Shown one piece after another: positions 28,666 through 44,186 of a stretch of DNA of 64,000 nt (position 1 is the first letter of the stretch; every line of letters begins with the position of its first letter). The position numbers and the translations under genes are program-made. Under the pieces are notes generated by a model that was not told the origin of the DNA, did not search any database, and was given only the letters and a program-made list of their open reading frames with translations. The stretch is from Candidatus Aminicenantes bacterium (GTDB lineage Bacteria; Acidobacteriota; Aminicenantia; Aminicenantales; Saccharicenantaceae). The DNA lies in the NCBI GenBank assembly GCA_963742235.1, contig CAVULT010000030.1, forward strand, positions 149,655 through 213,654, written 5' to 3'.

Positions 28666-31246
28666 CGGGCGTCTCTTCGTCGATCATCCGGACGGCCCGC
28701 CAACGGCCGTCTCCGTCGAAACGCAGGGTCTTGATCTCGAAAGGTGCGAAGGACAGTCCCCTTTCCTGAGCCGGGGACGCGTGCCGCGGATCCTCAGCTT
28801 CAGGATTATCCGAAGCGGGCTCGTTTCCTCGTGTTCGGGGCGCGGCCGGCTCGACTTTCAGCTCACACTTTGTTTTCTTCCCGACGGCCTCCTGCAGCCT
28901 AAGGATCAGCGCTCCACCATCCCAGGACCGCTTGCAGGCGAGCATTCGCACGCTGGACGGCTTGAGTGAGAGCAAGAGCTCCCGTGGCTGTGCCTGCCGC
29001 GCATCATAAGGCAGGTGAGCGTAGGCCGCCGGCGGAGCGGCAAGATGATCCGCCAGGCCCGGCATCAGCGCCTTGACCGAAGCTGGCGCGCCGGCCGCGA
29101 CGAGGAGCCGGAACTCATGAACGCCGATGTCGGCGAATTTCCATACGGGGGGACATGTACCTTTGGTACGTGTCCCCACTTTTGATGCCGCCGTATCGAG
29201 GTCGAATCCCCGCTCGTGGCAATAGGCGGAGCTCCGGAGAACGGACAGGCGGATCTCGCCGTCCTTGAAATCCAGGCCGTTCTGGCCGCTCGAGGCGACG
29301 CCGATCGCGGCGGGCTTGCCGGCCGATCGTCCCTCGACGACCAGCCACCGGCCGTGGACGTGCTCCTCCCCGTCCGCGGGCCGATGGATCGCTCCGCCCG
29401 GGACCTCGGCGAGGAGCGTGGGCGATGATAGGGACGTCGGCACGCTGAGCTTCAGCCGGCGCCGCTCCTCGTTCCAGGTGACGCGGAAACGGAACTCGAG
29501 GACGGGCCAGGATGGATAGGCCACGACGTCCGTGACGACGCGGCTTTTGCGGTACGAAAAGATCGACCGCGTCACCGTCCGGATGGGGCCGCTCTCGATG
29601 ACGAAGGGAGGGCACGACGGCTTGAAGCGGCCGACGATCTTGCGGTAGCCGCCGCGGCCCGTTCCCCACGAATCCGCCGTATCCTCGATGACAAGAGGTT
29701 CGAAGAGAGGCCCGGCGAGGCATTCCTTTTCCGTTCTGCCCGGCCCGGATTTCAGCAACCGGACGAGTCCGGTCGCGCGGTCAATTCGGTAGGGAACGGG
29801 GACATGTACCTTAGGTACGTGTCCCCGGCTTTCGGCTTCCCGGCTCTCGGCTTCGTTGGTTTTGCCGGAGGGGATTTCGAACGCTCTCAGGTAATATCTC
29901 GAAACGCCCACCCCCGGCAGGTCGTCGACGAACGAGATCCGCCGCCGCCAGCTATTGAACGGCAGGAGGGACTCGGGCTGTTCTTCCTGGCAGGCGACCT
30001 CGCGGCCGTCGGCCCGGAAGAGCCGCATGCGCCACGTCCCCGTCCAGAAGGGCCGATGGTCGGCCATGCATTCGAATTCGACGGGGACACGGCGGAGGGA
30101 GGCGTTGGCGCTGAAGACGGTGACGGGGAGCGAGGGGCTGTTGCGGCTGCCGCGGTTGAGGGAAGCGAGGGACCGCAGGGCGGCCGCGCGGCCGATGTCC
30201 TCGGCCCGGCCGTACTGACCGAGGGCATCGCGCTCGGCGGGCTCGATGCAGGTGCCGGTCAGAATGTCGTGGAAATCGTTGAACAGGTGCAGCTTCCAGG
30301 CCTCGGCCAGTTCGGGCTCCGGGCCCGTCTCCGGGGCGAGCCACCAGGACGCCGCCGACGCCGCCTCCGCTTGGACGAGGCTGCCGAGGCTTGTGACCGC
30401 GCGCCGTTTGAGACGGGAGAGCGAGGTATAGCAGCCGGTGAACGAGCGTTGGAGGTCGCCGTCATGGATGGGGGCGACGGCCGCCGCATCCTTGACCGCG
30501 TCATAGAACCGGTCGGGCGTGCTGTGGAGGATGCGGACGCGCGATTCGCGGGCGATGGAGGCGTCGATCGTCTCAAGGTCGCGGCGCGTCGCCCCGCCGC
30601 CATGGTTGCCGAGGCCCCAGAAGACGGGCACGTCGCGGCCGAGCTTCAGAGCGAGATCGACTCCGGCGCGAAGGCGGTCCTCGATGTTGTCGTGCTCGGT
30701 ATGGTAGAGACCGACGGCGATGCGGTAGGCCGGGATGGTCGTGCCGTCGATGCCGCGCCAGCGGTAGAGATCGGCCGGAAGCGCGAGCTCCCCGGCCTGG
30801 GGGCGCATGTGGACGTACATCTCGTAGCCGGCGAGGCGCAGGATCTGGGGCAGCCCGCCGCTGTGGCCGAAGGAATCGAAATTGTAGGCGACGCGGGGCG
30901 CGGCGTCGAAGCGGTCCCGGAAGTAGCGGCGGCCCTCGGCGATCGTCCGGATGAGCGATTCCGTTCCCGGCAGATTAGCGTCGGGCTGGATGAACCAGCC
31001 GCCCGAAATAGCCCAGCGCCCGGCCTTGACGAGGCGGCGGATGTCATCGAAGAGCGCCGGATCGAGCCGCTCGGCCCACTGGTAGAGGACGGCCTCGTTG
31101 TGGCAGAAGATGAGCGAGGGATGCTCATCGAGGATATCGACGGCGTTCCGGAAAGTCGCCAGGGCCTCCGACGCGCCCTCGTCCCAGCGCCACTGCCAGA
31201 CGGGATCGAGATGCGCGCCGCAGATCAGGTGCACCGAAATCGGCAT
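28658..31246 (-). CDS. Alpha-mannosidase (GH38)
   Basis: The N-terminus HLICGAHLDPVWQWRWDEG...CHNEAVLYQW...GGWFIQPDANLPGTESLIR...NFDSFGH is the GH38 catalytic-domain signature. The start abuts the SSF transporter stop with no gap. The ORF contains two copies of the 29-bp palindromic element. Confidence 0.9.
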   Translation of the reverse strand: MPISVHLICGAHLDPVWQWRWDEGASEALATFRNAVDILDEHPSLIFCHNEAVLYQWAERLDPALFDDIRRLVKAGRWAISGGWFIQPDANLPGTESLIRTIAEGRRYFRDRFDAAPRVAYNFDSFGHSGGLPQILRLAGYEMYVHMRPQAGELALPADLYRWRGIDGTTIPAYRIAVGLYHTEHDNIEDRLRAGVDLALKLGRDVPVFWGLGNHGGGATRRDLETIDASIARESRVRILHSTPDRFYDAVKDAAAVAPIHDGDLQRSFTGCYTSLSRLKRRAVTSLGSLVQAEAASAASWWLAPETGPEPELAEAWKLHLFNDFHDILTGTCIEPAERDALGQYGRAEDIGRAAALRSLASLNRGSRNSPSLPVTVFSANASLRRVPVEFECMADHRPFWTGTWRMRLFRADGREVACQEEQPESLLPFNSWRRRISFVDDLPGVGVSRYYLRAFEIPSGKTNEAESREAESRGHVPKVHVPVPYRIDRATGLVRLLKSGPGRTEKECLAGPLFEPLVIEDTADSWGTGRGGYRKIVGRFKPSCPPFVIESGPIRTVTRSIFSYRKSRVVTDVVAYPSWPVLEFRFRVTWNEERRRLKLSVPTSLSSPTLLAEVPGGAIHRPADGEEHVHGRWLVVEGRSAGKPAAIGVASSGQNGLDFKDGEIRLSVLRSSAYCHERGFDLDTAASKVGTRTKGTCPPVWKFADIGVHEFRLLVAAGAPASVKALMPGLADHLAAPPAAYAHLPYDARQAQPRELLLSLKPSSVRMLACKRSWDGGALILRLQEAVGKKTKCELKVEPAAPRTRGNEPASDNPEAEDPRHASPAQERGLSFAPFEIKTLRFDGDGRWRAVRMIDEETPAI
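29149..29177. repeat. 29-bp GGGGACA...TGTCCCC palindromic element inside the GH38 ORF
   Basis: GGGGACATGTACCTTTGGTACGTGTCCCC: 13-nt arms and a 3-nt loop. In the gene it is translated as GTRTKGTCP. Confidence 0.9.
29798..29826. repeat. 29-bp GGGGACA...TGTCCCC palindromic element inside the GH38 ORF
   Basis: GGGGACATGTACCTTAGGTACGTGTCCCC, differing from the 29149 copy at one base. It is translated in a different frame as GHVPKVHVP. Confidence 0.9.
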
Positions 31247-33004
31247 CTAGAGCTCATCTTTGCTGGGCAGGTTCTTGTACCAGGTGAAGTACAGGACGAC
31301 CGCGATCGCGGCCGCGCCGGCGGCCCAGATCCCCAGTTGCTTCCAGTTCCGCATGAACAGGTAGAAGGGCAGGATGGCCAGGGAGAACTGGAATCCCGCG
31401 GTGACGAAGCCGTTGAGCAGGTCGATCTTCGGCATCTTGTCCTTGGCCGGCACGAGCCCACGCCTGACGCACTCCCGCCGGACCGGTCCCCAGAACCCGA
31501 ACGGGCGGACCTTGGCATAGAACTTGACCAGGACCTCCATGTCCGCGGGTTTCGTCAGCGCCGCCACGACGAGGGTCGTCGCGAGGCTGAGCCCCACGTC
31601 GATGGCCAGCGAGGCCGACGCGTGCAGGCCCTTGACGAAGACGAGCCGGAGCGAGATCAGGACGGCCGAGACGCCCATGCTCCAGACGAAGGCCCTGGCC
31701 CCGAACCGCCAATAATGCCAGCGCAGGGTCGCCGGCACGAGGATGACCGTGACGACGACGAAGACCATCATCTCCCAGGCCGTGACGATGTTCGTGAACG
31801 AGAGCGAGAAGACGAACCCGATGAGGACGGCCGCGACCGAGGCGATCTGCCCCAGCCGGACGAGCTTCTTCTGGCTCAGGTCCTTGGCGATATAGCGTTT
31901 GACGAAATCGTTGATGACGACGGAGCTGGTGACGTTGATCATGGCGCTGATCGTCGACATCAGCGCCGCGAGCAGAACGGCCATGAACAGGCCGCGCAGC
32001 CCGACCGGCATCTTCAGCAGGACGAGGGGCATGATCTTCTCGGCGTCGAACCCGGCCTGGTTCCCCAGATAAAAGATCCCCAGGACCATGAAGGAGACGC
32101 CGAGGACCCAGCGCAGGTTGTAGCCGACCGTCCACATCCCGGCGGCCAGCTGGGCGTCGCGCGGCGACTTCGTCGTCAGGAAGAACTGGAAGTCCCAGAC
32201 GTTCGGCCCGGCCAGGAGGCGGAAGATCATCCAGAAGAACCCCGCCGCCATGAGCGGGCCGAACATCCCGAAATGCTGGTAGGCCGGCGGCGTCTCCGCC
32301 GCGAACCCCGACCAGAGATGCCACGTCGGCGCGAGCGAGAACCAGCCCGGGTCCTTGTGGATGAAGGTCATCGCGGCGGGCTTGGCGAAGACCATGACGC
32401 CCAGGATGACCGCCCCGACGCCGATGAGGAGCGTCTGGAAAATGTCCGTGAGGATGACGCCGAAGAACCCGCCCAGGGTCACGTAAATCCCCACGACGGC
32501 CAGGACGATGAGCGTCGCCTCCCAGCGGGGCAGGGGCAGGAACTCCTCGACGAACTTGCCCGTGCCGACGCTGATGAACATCAGGTTGCAGATCATCAGC
32601 ACGAGCAGGAAGATGGCCGCCGCGAGCCGGGCGGCCTCGGCGTCCTTCCCCGTGCCGAAGCGCGTCTCGTTCCACTCGGCGAAGGTCATGACCCCCGACC
32701 GGCGGATGTACTTGGCCTGAAAGGCCATGTAGAAGCAGATCATGAACCAGCCCCAGAAGATGTGCGTCGCCCACATCGACTTGAGCCCGACGTAGAAAAT
32801 GAGCCCGATCATGGACATCGTGCCGCCGATATCGATGTAGCTCGAGCAGCCCGAGAGACCGAGCATCCACCAGGGCACGTTGCGGTCGGCCAGGTAGAAG
32901 GAGTCGAGCTTTTTGGTCGCCCGCTTCCGGAGGACCACCCCGACCATGGCCACGGCGACGAGGTAGACGGCGATGATAACCAGATCGACGGGGTGGAGGT
33001 TCAT
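31247..33004 (-). CDS. Sodium:solute symporter (SSF) family transporter
   Basis: Multi-pass membrane protein. The N-terminus is MNLHPVDLVIIAVYLVAVAMVG...DSFYLADRNVPWW, typical of SSF. I prefer the start at 33004 over the ORF-track start at 33088, whose extra residues are basic and non-membrane. Confidence 0.8.
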   Translation of the reverse strand: MNLHPVDLVIIAVYLVAVAMVGVVLRKRATKKLDSFYLADRNVPWWMLGLSGCSSYIDIGGTMSMIGLIFYVGLKSMWATHIFWGWFMICFYMAFQAKYIRRSGVMTFAEWNETRFGTGKDAEAARLAAAIFLLVLMICNLMFISVGTGKFVEEFLPLPRWEATLIVLAVVGIYVTLGGFFGVILTDIFQTLLIGVGAVILGVMVFAKPAAMTFIHKDPGWFSLAPTWHLWSGFAAETPPAYQHFGMFGPLMAAGFFWMIFRLLAGPNVWDFQFFLTTKSPRDAQLAAGMWTVGYNLRWVLGVSFMVLGIFYLGNQAGFDAEKIMPLVLLKMPVGLRGLFMAVLLAALMSTISAMINVTSSVVINDFVKRYIAKDLSQKKLVRLGQIASVAAVLIGFVFSLSFTNIVTAWEMMVFVVVTVILVPATLRWHYWRFGARAFVWSMGVSAVLISLRLVFVKGLHASASLAIDVGLSLATTLVVAALTKPADMEVLVKFYAKVRPFGFWGPVRRECVRRGLVPAKDKMPKIDLLNGFVTAGFQFSLAILPFYLFMRNWKQLGIWAAGAAAIAVVLYFTWYKNLPSKDEL

Positions 33005-33069
33005 GCCCCTTCTATACCACCGCCCGCGAACGACCGTCAATTCCCCCTCTGTTTTTCTGCCGCGAATCG

Positions 33070-33078
33070 TGCTAAAAT
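33070..33078 (+). promoter_or_regulatory. Candidate extended -10 element (TGCTAAAAT) for ftsH
   Basis: GTGCTAAAAT ends 25 nt upstream of the ftsH ATG. A near-identical GTGCTACAAT sits upstream of the 57445 operon. The -35 is weak. Confidence 0.35.
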
Positions 33079-33102
33079 ATCTCTTCAAAAGGACGGAGAA
33101 TT

Positions 33103-34971
<1,869 letters not shown>

Positions 34972-42053: not shown

Positions 42054-43031
42054 ATGCCCCTCCGGATCGGTACGGTCGCCATCGATTTTCCGATCGGTCT
42101 CGGGGCCCTGGCCGGCTACAGCGATCTCCCCTACCGCCTGATCTGCCGCTCCCTCGGCGCGCCCTACTGCATCACCGAGGCCATGCTCGACCGCCAGGTC
42201 CTGCTCGAAGGGAGGCTGCGCAAGCGCCTCGTCCGGCTCGACCCGGCCGACCATCCCGTCGCCGGCCAGATCATGGGCGTCGAGCCGGAGACGATGGCCG
42301 ACGCCGCGCGCTCGCTCGACCGCATGGGCTTCGACATCGTCGACCTCAACTTCGCCTGCCCCGTCCGCAAGGTCGTCTCGCACAAGCGCGGCGGGGCGCT
42401 CATGAACGACCCCGAGCGCGCTCTGGCGACCGTGCGCGCGGTCGTCGCGGCCGTGCCCGGCCGGCCGGTGACGCTCAAGATGCGGCGCGCCTTCCGGAAC
42501 GCCGACCGGACCCACGAGAGCTTCTGGACGATCGCCCGCGGCGCGTTCGAGGCCGGCGCCTCGGCCATCGCCGTCCACGCCCGGAGCGTCGAGCAGAAGT
42601 ACACCGGACGGGCCGACTGGGGATTCCTGGCCGAGGTCAAGCGGGCCTTCCCCGGACGAACGATCCTCGGATCGGGCGACGTCTCGAACCCCGCCGAGGC
42701 CCTGCGCATGATGGCCGAAACGGGCGTCGACGGCGTGCTCGCCGCCCGAGGCGCCATCGGCAACCCCTGGTTCTTCGCCCAGGCCCGCGACCTGGCCGCG
42801 GGGCGGCCGCCCCGCCAGCCCGCCCTCGCCGAGCAGCGCGAGGTCATCACCCGCCACTATCGCCTCGCCTGCGAGGCCTACGACCCGCGGCGCGGGCTCA
42901 AGATCCTGCGCCACTTCAGCCTGCAATACGCCAAGATGCACCCCCGCCGGACCGATCTCCGCAACGCCCTGGTCAAGGTCCGGACCGAGGACGAATGGCG
43001 GGCCGTCATCGATGCGTTCTACGGCCTCTAG
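42054..43031 (+). CDS. tRNA-dihydrouridine synthase
   Basis: The translation reads LAGYSDLPYRLICRSLGA...QIMG...DLNFACPVRKV...GGALM...VTLKMR...AVHARS, a Dus-family FMN TIM barrel with the catalytic Cys. Confidence 0.85.
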   Translation: MPLRIGTVAIDFPIGLGALAGYSDLPYRLICRSLGAPYCITEAMLDRQVLLEGRLRKRLVRLDPADHPVAGQIMGVEPETMADAARSLDRMGFDIVDLNFACPVRKVVSHKRGGALMNDPERALATVRAVVAAVPGRPVTLKMRRAFRNADRTHESFWTIARGAFEAGASAIAVHARSVEQKYTGRADWGFLAEVKRAFPGRTILGSGDVSNPAEALRMMAETGVDGVLAARGAIGNPWFFAQARDLAAGRPPRQPALAEQREVITRHYRLACEAYDPRRGLKILRHFSLQYAKMHPRRTDLRNALVKVRTEDEWRAVIDAFYGL

Positions 43032-43036
43032 AGATC

Positions 43037-43065
43037 GGGGACACGTACCTCAGGGACATGTCCCC
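43037..43065. repeat. 29-bp GGGGACA...TGTCCCC palindromic element (intergenic, 6 nt after the dus stop)
   Basis: GGGGACACGTACCTCAGGGACATGTCCCC is identical to 43317-43345. Its reverse complement is 27/29 identical to the GH38 copy at 29798. Confidence 0.9.
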
Positions 43066-43100
43066 GGACGGCTTTACACACCTTATCCCGTTGTGCTAAT

Positions 43101-43209
43101 AAAGACGGTGCTCCGAGTCGGAGGCGCTACAGCCGGCCCAGGCCGTTCCGCCCGGCCAGGCCCTCCGACCGACAGGGTGGAGCGGGAAACGGCTCCTCCT
43201 TCCGTGTTT
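43101..43209 (+). promoter_or_regulatory. Candidate molybdenum/tungsten-cofactor (Moco-type) riboswitch
   Basis: Nested helices: AAAGACGG (43101-08) pairs with CCGTGTTT (43202-09) with one mismatch, GTCGGAGG (43117-24) pairs with CCTCCGAC (43162-69), and there is a GGAGC-GGGAAACG-GCTCC hairpin (43179-96). A CUCCGAG junction motif is present. CTCCTT (43196-201) can sequester the AAGGAG RBS (43213-18). It lies directly upstream of tupA-like and Moco-biosynthesis genes. The consensus is recalled from memory, not scored. Confidence 0.5.
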
Positions 43210-43223
43210 GAAAAGGAGACATC

Positions 43224-44186
43224 GTGCGGCGCCAAGCCCGTCGGATTCGTCGTCGGATATCCGTCCGAGCGGCCCTTGCCACTCTGATATTGTGTGCCGC
43301 ACTCCCGGCCAAGAATGGGGACACGTACCTCAGGGACATGTCCCCGATCGCGTCCCCGACCGCGTCATGGGCCGGCGCGGGCGATCTATGCGGCGGGGGG
43401 CCAGTGGCCGCCCCGGCGGTCGCCGACCGGACGCTCATGCTGGCCACGACCACGAGCGTCGACGCCACGGGCCTTCTCGACGTCCTGGCCGACGCTTTCA
43501 AAGCGGATAGCGGCATCACCCTCAAGTGGATTGCCGTCGGGACGGGCGCGGCCCTCAGGCAGGCCCGCGACGGCAACGCCGACGTCGTCATCGTCCACGC
43601 CCGCAAGCTCGAGGAGGAGTTTCTCCGCGACGGCTTCGGCGTCAACCGCCGGGTCATCGCCCGGAACTACTTCATGATCGTCGGCCCGCCCGAAGACCCG
43701 GCCCGGGTCGCGAGCTCCCGGTCGGCGGCCGAGGCCCTCGGACGGATCCGCTCGGGCGGCGCCTCCTTCGTCAGCCGGGGCGACAACTCCGGGACCCACA
43801 CCCGCGAGCTCGAGCTCTGGGCCCTGGCCGGGGGCAAGCCCGAGGCCGCCTACCTCGAGACGGGCCAAGGCATGGCCGAGACCCTTCGCGTCGCGGCCGA
43901 GCGGCGCGCCTACACGCTGACCGACACGGCCACCTTTTACGGATTGCGCGGGCTCGCCGGCCTCAAGCCGGTCTACGAGAACGCGCCCGAGCTCGAGAAC
44001 ATCTACGCCGTGATCGCCGTCGACCCGGCCCGCATCGTCACGGCCCGCTACGGCGAGGCCATGGTCTTCATCGCCTTTCTGACCTCGCCTCGCGGGCAAA
44101 AGCTCATCGGGACGTTCCGCGGCCAGGCCGGCCGCCCCCTGTTCGAGCCGCTCGCGGCCGTCGCCGGAGTGGACCTCGTCAAATGA
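43224..44186 (+). CDS. tupA: Tungstate/molybdate ABC transporter substrate-binding protein (TupA-like)
   Basis: GTG start 7 nt after AAGGAG and a lipoprotein-like leader (AALATLILCAALPA). The mature part has LMLATTTSVDATGLLD, GTGAALRQARDGNADVVIVHA and SRGDNSGTH motifs of the TupA family. The 29-bp palindrome lies in codons 32-41. Confidence 0.75.
   Translation: MRRQARRIRRRISVRAALATLILCAALPAKNGDTYLRDMSPIASPTASWAGAGDLCGGGPVAAPAVADRTLMLATTTSVDATGLLDVLADAFKADSGITLKWIAVGTGAALRQARDGNADVVIVHARKLEEEFLRDGFGVNRRVIARNYFMIVGPPEDPARVASSRSAAEALGRIRSGGASFVSRGDNSGTHTRELELWALAGGKPEAAYLETGQGMAETLRVAAERRAYTLTDTATFYGLRGLAGLKPVYENAPELENIYAVIAVDPARIVTARYGEAMVFIAFLTSPRGQKLIGTFRGQAGRPLFEPLAAVAGVDLVK
43317..43345. 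repeat. 29-bp GGGGACA...TGTCCCC palindromic element inside the tupA-like ORF
   Basis: GGGGACACGTACCTCAGGGACATGTCCCC is translated as GDTYLRDMSP, just after the predicted signal peptide. This is the third reading frame used by the family. Confidence 0.9.

What the first reader, a model, noticed from the sequence alone, without database searches (positions are those of the whole stretch)
43037..43345. Two identical 29-mers bracket the candidate Moco riboswitch and the first 31 codons of the tupA-like gene
Seen: GGGGACACGTACCTCAGGGACATGTCCCC occurs at 43037-43065, 6 nt after the dus stop. It occurs again, base-for-base identical, at 43317-43345. The second copy is inside the tupA-like ORF, encoding GDTYLRDMSP immediately after the predicted lipoprotein signal peptide (LILCAALPAKN-GDTYLRDMSP-IASP).

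The GTG start at 43224 has a good AAGGAG RBS, so the in-ORF reading is not an artefact of start choice. The 251-bp segment between the copies contains the whole leader and riboswitch candidate, the RBS and the signal peptide.

Two perfect near-palindromic repeats in direct orientation could mediate deletion or inversion of the regulatory region. Alternatively, the second copy could simply be a tolerated insertion in a flexible linker.
Basis: partly seen in the sequence, partly recalled or inferred. Interest (0 to 1): 0.62.

Follow-up and report, generated by a model that had tools for sequence, protein, structure and literature searches.

The report
REP hairpin copies flanking tupA leader
The two identical 29-base palindromes are ordinary copies of a selfish hairpin repeat (REP) that litters the genomes of this Aminicenantes genus. 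One landed behind the dus gene, and one landed in frame in the dispensable linker after the TupA signal peptide, where it is simply translated.

Summary
GGGGACACGTACCTCAGGGACATGTCCCC occurs at 43037-43065 and 43317-43345, where chance predicts 0 matches. The two copies bracket a bona fide Moco/Tuco riboswitch (RF01055, 56.7 bits), the RBS, the GTG start and 31 codons of tupA.

The 29-mer is not specific to this locus. It belongs to a dispersed hairpin family, GGGGACAYGTACC-loop-GGTACRTGTCCCC. This genome has about 30-44 copies. The family is present in 38 of 41 genomes of the genus and in none of 12 genomes from other genera of the order.

In sister genomes a Y1/RAYT-type transposase gene is tightly flanked by the same hairpin. 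That makes this a REP/RAYT system.

Both tupA-locus copies are old. They sit at the same positions in four species-level genomes and a metagenome contig, and empty-site alleles exist for each.

The in-ORF copy lies two codons after the conserved ALPA signal-peptidase motif and 25 residues before the folded TupA domain, which starts at residue 67. It is therefore a tolerated linker insertion. A second binding-protein gene shows the same arrangement.

None of 14 orthologous loci shows a deletion or inversion between the copies. All stem substitutions are uncompensated.

Verdict: a new member of a known kind, of modest interest.

The parts
42054..43031 (+). dus (DusB-like tRNA dihydrouridine synthase) gene, with stop TAG at 43029-43031
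   Evidence: ORF. TIGR00737 DusB, 253.9 bits (below the equivalog cut-off of 293).
43037..43065 (+). REP hairpin copy 1 (extragenic). It lies between the dus stop and the tupA promoter-like block and carries the T19G variant of the family consensus.
   Evidence: The orthologous copy is present in G005, G002, L040 and L044/L027. G013 has a 40-nt variant and G003/G007 have remnants. The site is empty in G001, G004, G009 and G017. RNA fold -15.8 kcal/mol.
43073..43102 (+). Promoter-like block TTTACA-N18-(TGc)TAATAA. It is conserved upstream of the riboswitch in all 14 orthologues. This is inferred; the consensus scanner did not call it.
   Evidence: Alignment. One search found no consensus promoter.
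43099..43235 (+). Moco/Tuco riboswitch aptamer of the P3-less type. The 3' arm of P1 sequesters the AAGGAG RBS (43213-43218).
   Evidence: RF01055, 56.7 bits, E 5.7e-13. The P3 positions are deleted in the alignment.
43224..44186 (+). tupA (tungstate ABC transporter substrate-binding protein), 320 aa. Residues 1-29 form the signal peptide, ending in ALPA. Residues 30-66 form the linker. The folded domain starts at about residue 67.
   Evidence: NF041772 TupA, residues 66-311. PDB 3LR1, residues 67-297. PBP_like_2, residues 69-289; orthologue N-termini.
43317..43345 (+). REP hairpin copy 2, in frame in tupA codons 32-41 (GDTYLRDMSP), two codons after the ALPA motif
   Evidence: The orthologous copy sits at the same +93 nt offset in G005, G002, L040 and G013. 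G012 has a separate insertion. The copy is absent in 8 other loci.
29149..29177 (-). Another copy of the same REP family, in frame inside a large minus-strand ORF
29798..29826 (-). Another copy of the same REP family, in the same ORF in a different frame
33021..33043 (.). Empty site. In G012, G009, G040 and G047 a RAYT gene flanked by 3-5 copies of this hairpin (a REPtron) is inserted here. In this genome it is absent.

Best explanation
The two 29-mers are two members of a genus-specific REP (repetitive extragenic palindrome) family of Candidatus Aminicenantes. The element has a 13-bp stem and a 3-nt loop, and always carries one C.A / G.U asymmetric position. Copies are presumably made and spread by a RAYT-type Y1 (HUH) transposase acting on the single-stranded hairpin.

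One copy settled in the few bases between the dus stop and the tupA promoter. The other settled in frame, 93 nt into tupA. That position lies in the stretch coding for the unstructured N-terminal tail between the signal-peptidase site (ALPA|) and the first strand of the binding-protein fold. There it is simply translated as GDTYLRDMSP and tolerated.

Both insertions are ancient and are now decaying fossils. The cognate transposase locus, about 10 kb upstream in relatives, is empty in this genome. That the two copies bracket the riboswitch is a by-product of two family traits: copies cluster locally and tend to land at gene ends.

Their perfect identity reflects a shared origin. The same TCA loop is seen in both copies in G002. 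Gene conversion between the copies may also have contributed.

Shown: family membership, distribution, RAYT flanking in relatives, orthology of both copies, empty sites, and linker position.
Inferred: the transposition mechanism, the lack of function, and gene conversion.
For: Family and distribution:
- This genome holds 44 loose or 30 strict copies.
- 38 of 41 genus genomes carry the family, with up to 73 copies, and the reversed-pattern control gives 0.
- None of 12 genomes from other genera of the order carry it.
- The records are Candidatus Aminicenantes MAGs.

RAYT association:
- PF01797 genes in G012, G047, G009 and G040 have 3-5 copies of this exact hairpin within 200 nt upstream and one copy at or near the 3' end.
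- In G012 the stop codon of the transposase gene lies in the hairpin loop.
- The best NCBIfam hit is REP_Tyr_transpos.
- This genome has an empty site at window 33021-33043.
- This genome has no close homologue; the best match is 41% identical and is not flanked by hairpins.

Age and orthology:
- Copies sit at identical offsets in G005, G002, L040 and G013.
- Empty alleles exist for both sites.

Linker position:
- Orthologues without the copy read ...ALPA-ERTLMLATTTS.
- The TupA profile and the PDB 3LR1 alignment start at residue 66-67.

Parallels:
- A Peripla_BP_2 binding protein on C6 has a hairpin at residues 23-32, right after its signal peptide, in another frame.
- Its orthologues in G012, G011 and G009 carry further copies, while five other orthologues have none.

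Decay:
- All 9 stem substitutions in the 11 orthologous copies weaken a pair, and none is compensated.

Clustering:
- There are 7 doublets closer than 1 kb, against 0.29 expected, and 5 of the 7 are in the same orientation.

Literature:
- REPs inside ORFs are documented.
- So are RAYT-flanking repeats with a GGGGWSAS head (PMC3733652).
Against: - No RAYT flanked by this hairpin is present in this genome. The assembly is only 55% complete, so present-day mobility here is unknown.
- The family lacks the GTAG tag of classical REPs.
- Presence or absence of the in-ORF copy does not follow the tree of the flanking genes. G013 has it while its sister G009 does not, and G012 has one with different junctions. 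The history therefore involves recombination, repeated loss, or more than one insertion.
- An RNA-level role cannot be excluded without transcript data. Possible roles are dus 3'-end stabilisation or translational pausing during export.
- Population-level rearrangement was not testable.
Confidence: 0.85

Rival explanations
1. Recombination switch. The two identical near-palindromes act as direct repeats, and because they are palindromic also as inverted repeats. They would mediate deletion or inversion of the promoter-riboswitch-start-signal-peptide segment and so turn tungstate uptake off or on.
For: - The two copies share 29/29 identity at 251-bp spacing.
- They are the only adjacent pair in the genome that is also identical.
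Against: - All 14 orthologous loci are collinear and none is deleted or inverted.
- Both copies have been kept in place across four species-level genomes plus contig L040.
- Deletion would give an irreversible null allele.
- 29 bp is short for RecA-dependent exchange.
- I noticed no recombinase-like gene among the genes from 40.7 to 47.1 kb when reading the ORF list; this was not searched systematically.
- In relatives the copies differ from each other (G005, L040, G002) yet the arrangement is the same.
Confidence: 0.04
2. Domesticated RNA or DNA structural elements. Copy 1 would serve as a 3' hairpin that ends or stabilises the dus transcript and insulates the tupA promoter. Copy 2 would act as an mRNA hairpin that slows early elongation to aid co-translational targeting of TupA.
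For: - Both copies fold stably as RNA, at -15.8 kcal/mol and z -2.7.
- Copy 1 lies 5 nt after a stop codon, the usual REP position.
- The literature attributes mRNA-stabilising roles to REPs (PMC3733652).
- A hairpin sits just after the signal peptide in a second binding-protein gene.
Against: - Copy 1 has no T-tract, and the scanner found no terminator.
- Genomes with the empty site have the dus stop abutting the promoter block and evidently manage without the hairpin.
- All stem changes in orthologous copies are disruptive, with no covariation.
- On the mRNA strand the element is in its weaker (C.A mismatch) orientation.
Confidence: 0.1
3. The identity of the two copies is maintained by gene conversion (concerted evolution) between them, rather than by recent independent insertion of identical elements.
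For: - Within each of four genomes the two copies share the state at position 19. G000 and L040 have G/G; G005 and G002 have T/T. That state is homoplastic on the flanking-gene tree.
- The G000 in-ORF loop is TCA, like its upstream partner. Its nearest relatives L040 and G005 have CAC.
Against: - The node joining G000 with G005 has only 91% SH-aLRT support.
- T19G is the commonest variant family-wide, at 5 of 25 copies, so parallel mutation is plausible.
- Chance concordance in 4 of 4 genomes is about 0.06.
- 5 of 300 random pairs of copies are also identical.
Confidence: 0.35

Closest known systems
REP / REPIN elements with RAYT (TnpA-REP, IS200/IS605-like Y1 transposase) of Escherichia, Pseudomonas and Stenotrophomonas, together with the 'TIRtron' variants of Di Nocera et al. 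2013 (PMC3733652)
   Same: - A short imperfect palindrome present in tens of dispersed copies, mostly at gene ends and often in doublets.
- A Y1/HUH transposase gene flanked by the repeat in related genomes.
- A lineage-specific family.
- The head GGGGACAC fits the GGGGWSAS motif reported for RAYT-flanking repeats.
- Occasional copies inside ORFs, in linkers or loops.
   Different: - No GTAG or CGTC terminal tag.
- Copy number is tens, not hundreds.
- Most doublets are in direct rather than inverted orientation.
- The host phylum (Aminicenantes) has no described REP family in the papers searched.
- The RAYT scores below the NCBIfam equivalog cut-off.
Rickettsia palindromic elements (RPE; Ogata et al. 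2000, as cited in PMC3733652)
   Same: Palindromic repeats inserted in frame into functional protein-coding genes and translated as extra peptide segments at permissive surface or linker positions.
   Different: - RPEs are about 100-150 nt and CGTC-tagged, and no dedicated transposase is known for them.
- Here the insert is only 29 nt (10 codons) and has a RAYT partner.
Moco/Tuco riboswitch (RF01055) upstream of tungstate/molybdate transporters
   Same: The segment bracketed by the repeats is a standard member of this family. It is an RBS-sequestering, P3-less form in front of tupA. From my own knowledge (Regulski et al. 2008), this is the type associated with tungsten-related genes.
   Different: Nothing unusual in the riboswitch itself. 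It is conserved in orthologues that have no REP copies, so the repeats are not part of it.

Membership tests
REP/RAYT system | Short (20-40 nt) imperfect palindrome able to form a stem-loop | tested here: met
   The element is 29 nt with a 13-bp stem and a conserved C8.A22 mismatch. The consensus folds at -19 and -23 kcal/mol on the two strands.
REP/RAYT system | Many dispersed copies, restricted to a lineage | tested here: met
   30-44 copies in this genome. 38 of 41 genus genomes carry it (0-73 copies). 0 of 12 genomes from other genera carry it. The reversed-pattern control gives 0.
REP/RAYT system | Predominantly extragenic, near gene ends | tested here: inconclusive
   By frame and GC3 inspection, 5 of 44 copies lie inside ORFs (the large window ORF twice, TupA, a Peripla_BP_2 protein and an HrpA-like protein). 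The rest lie before starts or after stops. No formal gene calls were made.
REP/RAYT system | A Y1 (HUH) transposase gene flanked by copies of the same repeat (REPtron) | tested here: met
   Met in relatives G012, G047, G009 and G040, with PF01797 at 36.9 bits and an HVH motif in the translation. Not present in this genome, which has an empty site at 33021-33043. Three of the four flanked genes carry in-frame stops.
REP/RAYT system | RAYT protein reaches the curated REP_Tyr_transpos model cut-off | tested here: not met
   NF047646 is the best and only hit, but it scores 56.6 bits against a cut-off of 80.
REP/RAYT system | Conserved 5' GTAG tetranucleotide (classical group) | tested here: not met
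   No GTAG at either end, and the flanks are variable. The head GGGGACAC instead fits the GGGGWSAS motif of RAYT-flanking TIRs (PMC3733652).
REP/RAYT system | RAYT binds and cleaves the single-stranded hairpin | not testable with these tools
   Needs biochemistry.
Moco riboswitch RF01055 | Covariance-model score above the gathering threshold | tested here: met
   56.7 bits against 36, covering the full length 1-135.
TupA tungstate-binding protein | Match to the TupA equivalog and to the solved structure | tested here: inconclusive
   NF041772 scores 205.7 bits, below the equivalog cut-off of 400. PDB 3LR1 tungstate-binding protein gives E 8.6e-61 over residues 67-297.
Site-specific inversion/deletion switch | Alternative arrangements of the bracketed segment among relatives or reads | tested here: not met
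   14 of 14 loci are collinear. Reads were not available.

The most novel reading that the evidence does not exclude
REP copies may act as recombination anchors that let Aminicenantes species exchange or remodel 'leader cassettes' (promoter, riboswitch, signal peptide) of exported binding proteins.

Supporting observations:
- The REP-bearing long tupA leader is shared by lineages that are not sisters on the flanking-gene tree: G013 and the G000 clade.
- The two copies look homogenised within genomes.
- A second binding-protein gene has hairpins on both sides of its signal-peptide segment in G012 and G011. There the hairpin's own ATG may even supply the start codon.
Probability: 0.08. Interest if true: 0.55.

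Novelty: new member of a known kind. Interest (0 to 1): 0.3.

Why it matters
The result explains away a striking-looking arrangement. The repeats are selfish-element fossils, not part of the riboswitch and not a switch.

It adds a clean, phylogenetically dated example of a REP hairpin translated inside a functional gene, with filled and empty alleles available. It shows that the junction between signal peptide and mature domain of periplasmic binding proteins is a permissive landing zone.

It also independently confirms that an uncultured phylum, Aminicenantes, has its own REP/RAYT system. That is useful for annotation, because such hairpins should not be mistaken for terminators, operators or frameshifts. 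It may also serve as a strain-typing marker in metagenomes.

Tried and rejected
- Exact-protein look-ups for near-identical strains found nothing, with either a V or an M start.
- The first RAYT test was negative. None of the 31 PF01797 loci first retrieved (2 from this genome, 29 of the 30 requested from the genus search) had the hairpin within 1.5 kb. A second search seeded with a G031 RAYT then uncovered the hairpin-flanked subgroup. It also found a second subgroup flanked by 23-nt inverted repeats, GGGGGACATGATACTCATTTCCC.
- The consensus promoter and terminator scan found nothing in 42900-43450.
- A cassette-import idea was rejected. The 251-bp segment is homologous to the same region in genomes lacking both hairpins, so it was not brought in between the repeats.
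- CRISPR, operator-site and assembly-artefact readings were rejected. The family is dispersed genome-wide, and the arrangement recurs in independent assemblies.
- The lipoprotein reading was rejected on the lipobox rule and on the orthologues.
- No structure prediction was run, because the profile and PDB boundaries sufficed.

Full report
**Observation.**
- Window 43037-43065 and 43317-43345 carry the same 29-mer, GGGGACACGTACCTCAGGGACATGTCCCC, on the + strand. None is expected in 100 dinucleotide shuffles.
- Identity ends exactly at the 29 nt.
- Copy 1 starts 5 nt after the dus stop (TAG 43029-31).
- Copy 2 occupies codons 32-41 of the 320-aa ORF that starts at GTG 43224.
- Between the copies lies a real Moco/Tuco riboswitch: RF01055, 43099-43235, 56.7 bits against a gathering score of 36. 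Its P3 stem is absent, and the 3' arm of P1 contains the AAGGAG RBS.
- This riboswitch layout, a start codon conserved in all orthologues, and the lack of any downstream in-frame start preceded by a signal peptide together fix the start at 43224. Copy 2 is therefore translated.

**What the 29-mer is.**
- Two more copies lie in the window at 29149 and 29798.
- In the whole 3.02-Mb assembly (64% GC, 55% complete) I find 44 copies with a loose pattern and 30 with a strict one.
- The consensus is GGGGACAYGTACC-NNN-GGTACRTGTCCCC: a 13-bp stem, a variable 3-5-nt loop, and a fixed asymmetric position. That position is C.A on one strand and G.U on the other.
- The consensus folds at -19 and -23 kcal/mol on the two strands.
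- Shorter (23-27 nt) and longer (40-41 nt) variants exist.
- The family occurs in 38 of 41 sampled genomes of the same genus (0-73 exact copies), with a reversed-pattern control of 0. It occurs in none of 12 genomes from other genera of the order.
- Record titles identify the hosts as Candidatus Aminicenantes MAGs.

**Transposase link.**
- A first look at PF01797 (Y1 transposase) loci was negative.
- A search seeded with a RAYT-like ORF from G031 found a subgroup in which the gene is tightly flanked by this very hairpin. The subgroup is G012:C23, G047:C131, G009:C17 and G040:C4.
- Each has 3-5 copies within 200 nt upstream and one copy at or near the 3' end. In G012 the stop codon lies in the hairpin loop.
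- The protein has an HVH motif. Its best family is NCBIfam REP_Tyr_transpos, at 56.6 bits and below the cut-off of 80. PF01797 scores 36.9 bits.
- Three of the four flanked genes carry in-frame stops.
- In relatives this REPtron sits between homologues of window 31747-33021 and 33043-34473. In this genome the site is empty.
- No close homologue exists elsewhere in the assembly.
- This independently confirms the earlier scan note e1-2804133.
- Di Nocera et al. 2013 (PMC3733652) already describe three relevant things: REPs inside ORFs, RAYT genes flanked by repeats whose head fits GGGGWSAS (GGGGACAC fits), and the view that such inserts survive in flexible linkers or loops.

**History of the two tupA copies.**
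- I aligned the dus-tupA junction of 14 loci: 12 genus genomes plus metagenome contigs L040 and L044.
- The riboswitch and a promoter-like block are conserved and collinear in all 14. That block is TTTACA-N17/18-TAWNWA, at 43073-43102 in this window.
- Copy 1 is present in G000, L040, G005, G002 and L044/L027. G013 has a 40-nt variant and G003/G007 have remnants. In G001, G004, G009 and G017 the dus stop abuts the promoter block, which is the empty site.
- Copy 2 is present at the same +93 nt offset, with the same junctions (AAGAAT|...|GATC), in G000, L040, G005, G002 and G013.
- G012 has a copy with different junctions in a different signal-peptide background. Its sister G003 is empty there, so this is probably a second, independent insertion.
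- Eight loci lack copy 2. Those with the short leader (G004, G009, G017, G007) read signal peptide ...(A/V/F)LPA then ERTLMLATTTS.
- In G000 the ALPA motif is residues 26-29, then KN, then the 10 REP-encoded residues, then 25 more linker residues.
- The TupA profile starts at residue 66, and PDB 3LR1 aligns from residue 67.
- The insert is therefore in the N-terminal tail of the mature protein, outside the fold.
- On a tree of the flanking genes, the copy-2 pattern is incongruent: G013 groups with G009, which lacks it. Recombination of leader alleles or repeated loss must have occurred.

**No sign of function or of rearrangement.**
- No locus shows deletion or inversion of the bracketed segment.
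- Across the 11 orthologous copies there are 9 stem substitutions. All weaken a pair and none is compensated.
- There is no T-tract terminator.
- On the mRNA strand the element is in its weaker orientation, at -15.8 kcal/mol in G000.

**Why the copies are identical and adjacent.**
- Clustering is a family trait. There are 7 doublets closer than 1 kb, against 0.29 expected, and 5 are in the same orientation.
- 5 of 300 random pairs of 29-nt copies are identical.
- Both tupA copies share the TCA loop in G002 as well, so they were alike from early on.
- In all four genomes that have both copies, the state at position 19 is concordant between the copies, although it is homoplastic on the tree.
- G000's in-ORF loop equals that of its upstream partner, while L040 and G005 have CAC.
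- This suggests gene conversion, but it is not statistically secure.

**Parallel case.**
- A Peripla_BP_2 binding-protein gene on contig C6 has a hairpin at residues 23-32, directly after its signal peptide, read in another frame as GHVPQVHVP.
- Its orthologues in G012 and G011 have hairpins on both sides of the signal-peptide segment. G009 has one upstream. Five other orthologues have none.
- A degenerate copy lies in frame near the C-terminus of an HrpA-like helicase (DUF3418).

**Limits.**
- Exact-protein look-ups found no near-identical strains.
- Population heterogeneity and transcription therefore remain untested.

**Verdict.** This is a real repeat pair, explained as two old copies of an Aminicenantes REP/RAYT family. 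The 'tolerated linker insertion' reading is supported and the recombination-switch reading is not. It is a new member of a known kind and of modest interest.

Noticed in passing
window 33021-33043 (compare L111, L113, L114): In G012, G009, G040 and G047 a RAYT gene flanked by 3-5 REP hairpins is inserted in this divergent intergenic region. This genome has the empty site. In G040 and G012 about 20-25 nt of target sequence (ACCACCGCCCGCCCCGGAAGG / CATGCCCCTTTCTATACCACC) is repeated on both sides of the insert, which is not expected for Y1 transposition.
   Followed up: partly
G000 C6:34028-34975 (L125 1529-2479); orthologues L129 (G012), L132 (G011), L134 (G009): A second periplasmic binding-protein gene (Peripla_BP_2) has a REP hairpin in frame right after its signal peptide. 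In G012 and G011 hairpins lie on both sides of the signal-peptide segment. The upstream hairpin's internal ATG (GGGGACATGTCC) could itself be the start codon, giving MSLRYVSP-VLAALSLLLMSAPA.
   Followed up: partly
L095-L099, L102 (G031, G039, G010, G014, G036, G034): A second RAYT subgroup (67-100% identical to the G031 protein) is flanked by 23-nt inverted repeats, GGGGGACATGATACTCATTTCCC, rather than by 29-nt hairpins. These repeats share the GGGGACAYG head and resemble the 40-41-nt hairpin variants (GGGGACACGATAC...) found in this genome.
   Followed up: no
window 43130-43160 versus the orthologues: In the G000/G005/G002/L040/L044 clade the riboswitch P2 stem-loop is about 15 nt longer than in the other nine loci (including G012 and G013). 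The P3 stem is absent in this window's copy, the Tuco-type architecture; the orthologues were not scanned for it.
   Followed up: no
tupA leader, window 43224-43424, versus L044/L027: Metagenome contigs about 91% identical on both flanks carry a completely different signal-peptide segment (LKRFHLTTRRSAAVFALAMALTLAG...). This suggests allelic replacement of the leader between the conserved riboswitch and the mature domain.
   Followed up: partly
G000 C29:98219-98247 (L126): A degenerate hairpin copy (GGGGACTCGCACTTCCGGTGCGTGTCCCC) lies in frame, read as GDSHFRCVSP, near the C-terminus of a 1345-aa HrpA-like helicase ORF (DUF3418).
   Followed up: partly
G000 C30:258325, C31:3638, C19:5070: Three hairpin copies are embedded in a longer repeated sequence (ggagggccgaagcgggcacggatgaagatt-[hairpin]-aatcttcagagcgaggcccggatccgag). 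This may be a larger composite repeat.
   Followed up: no
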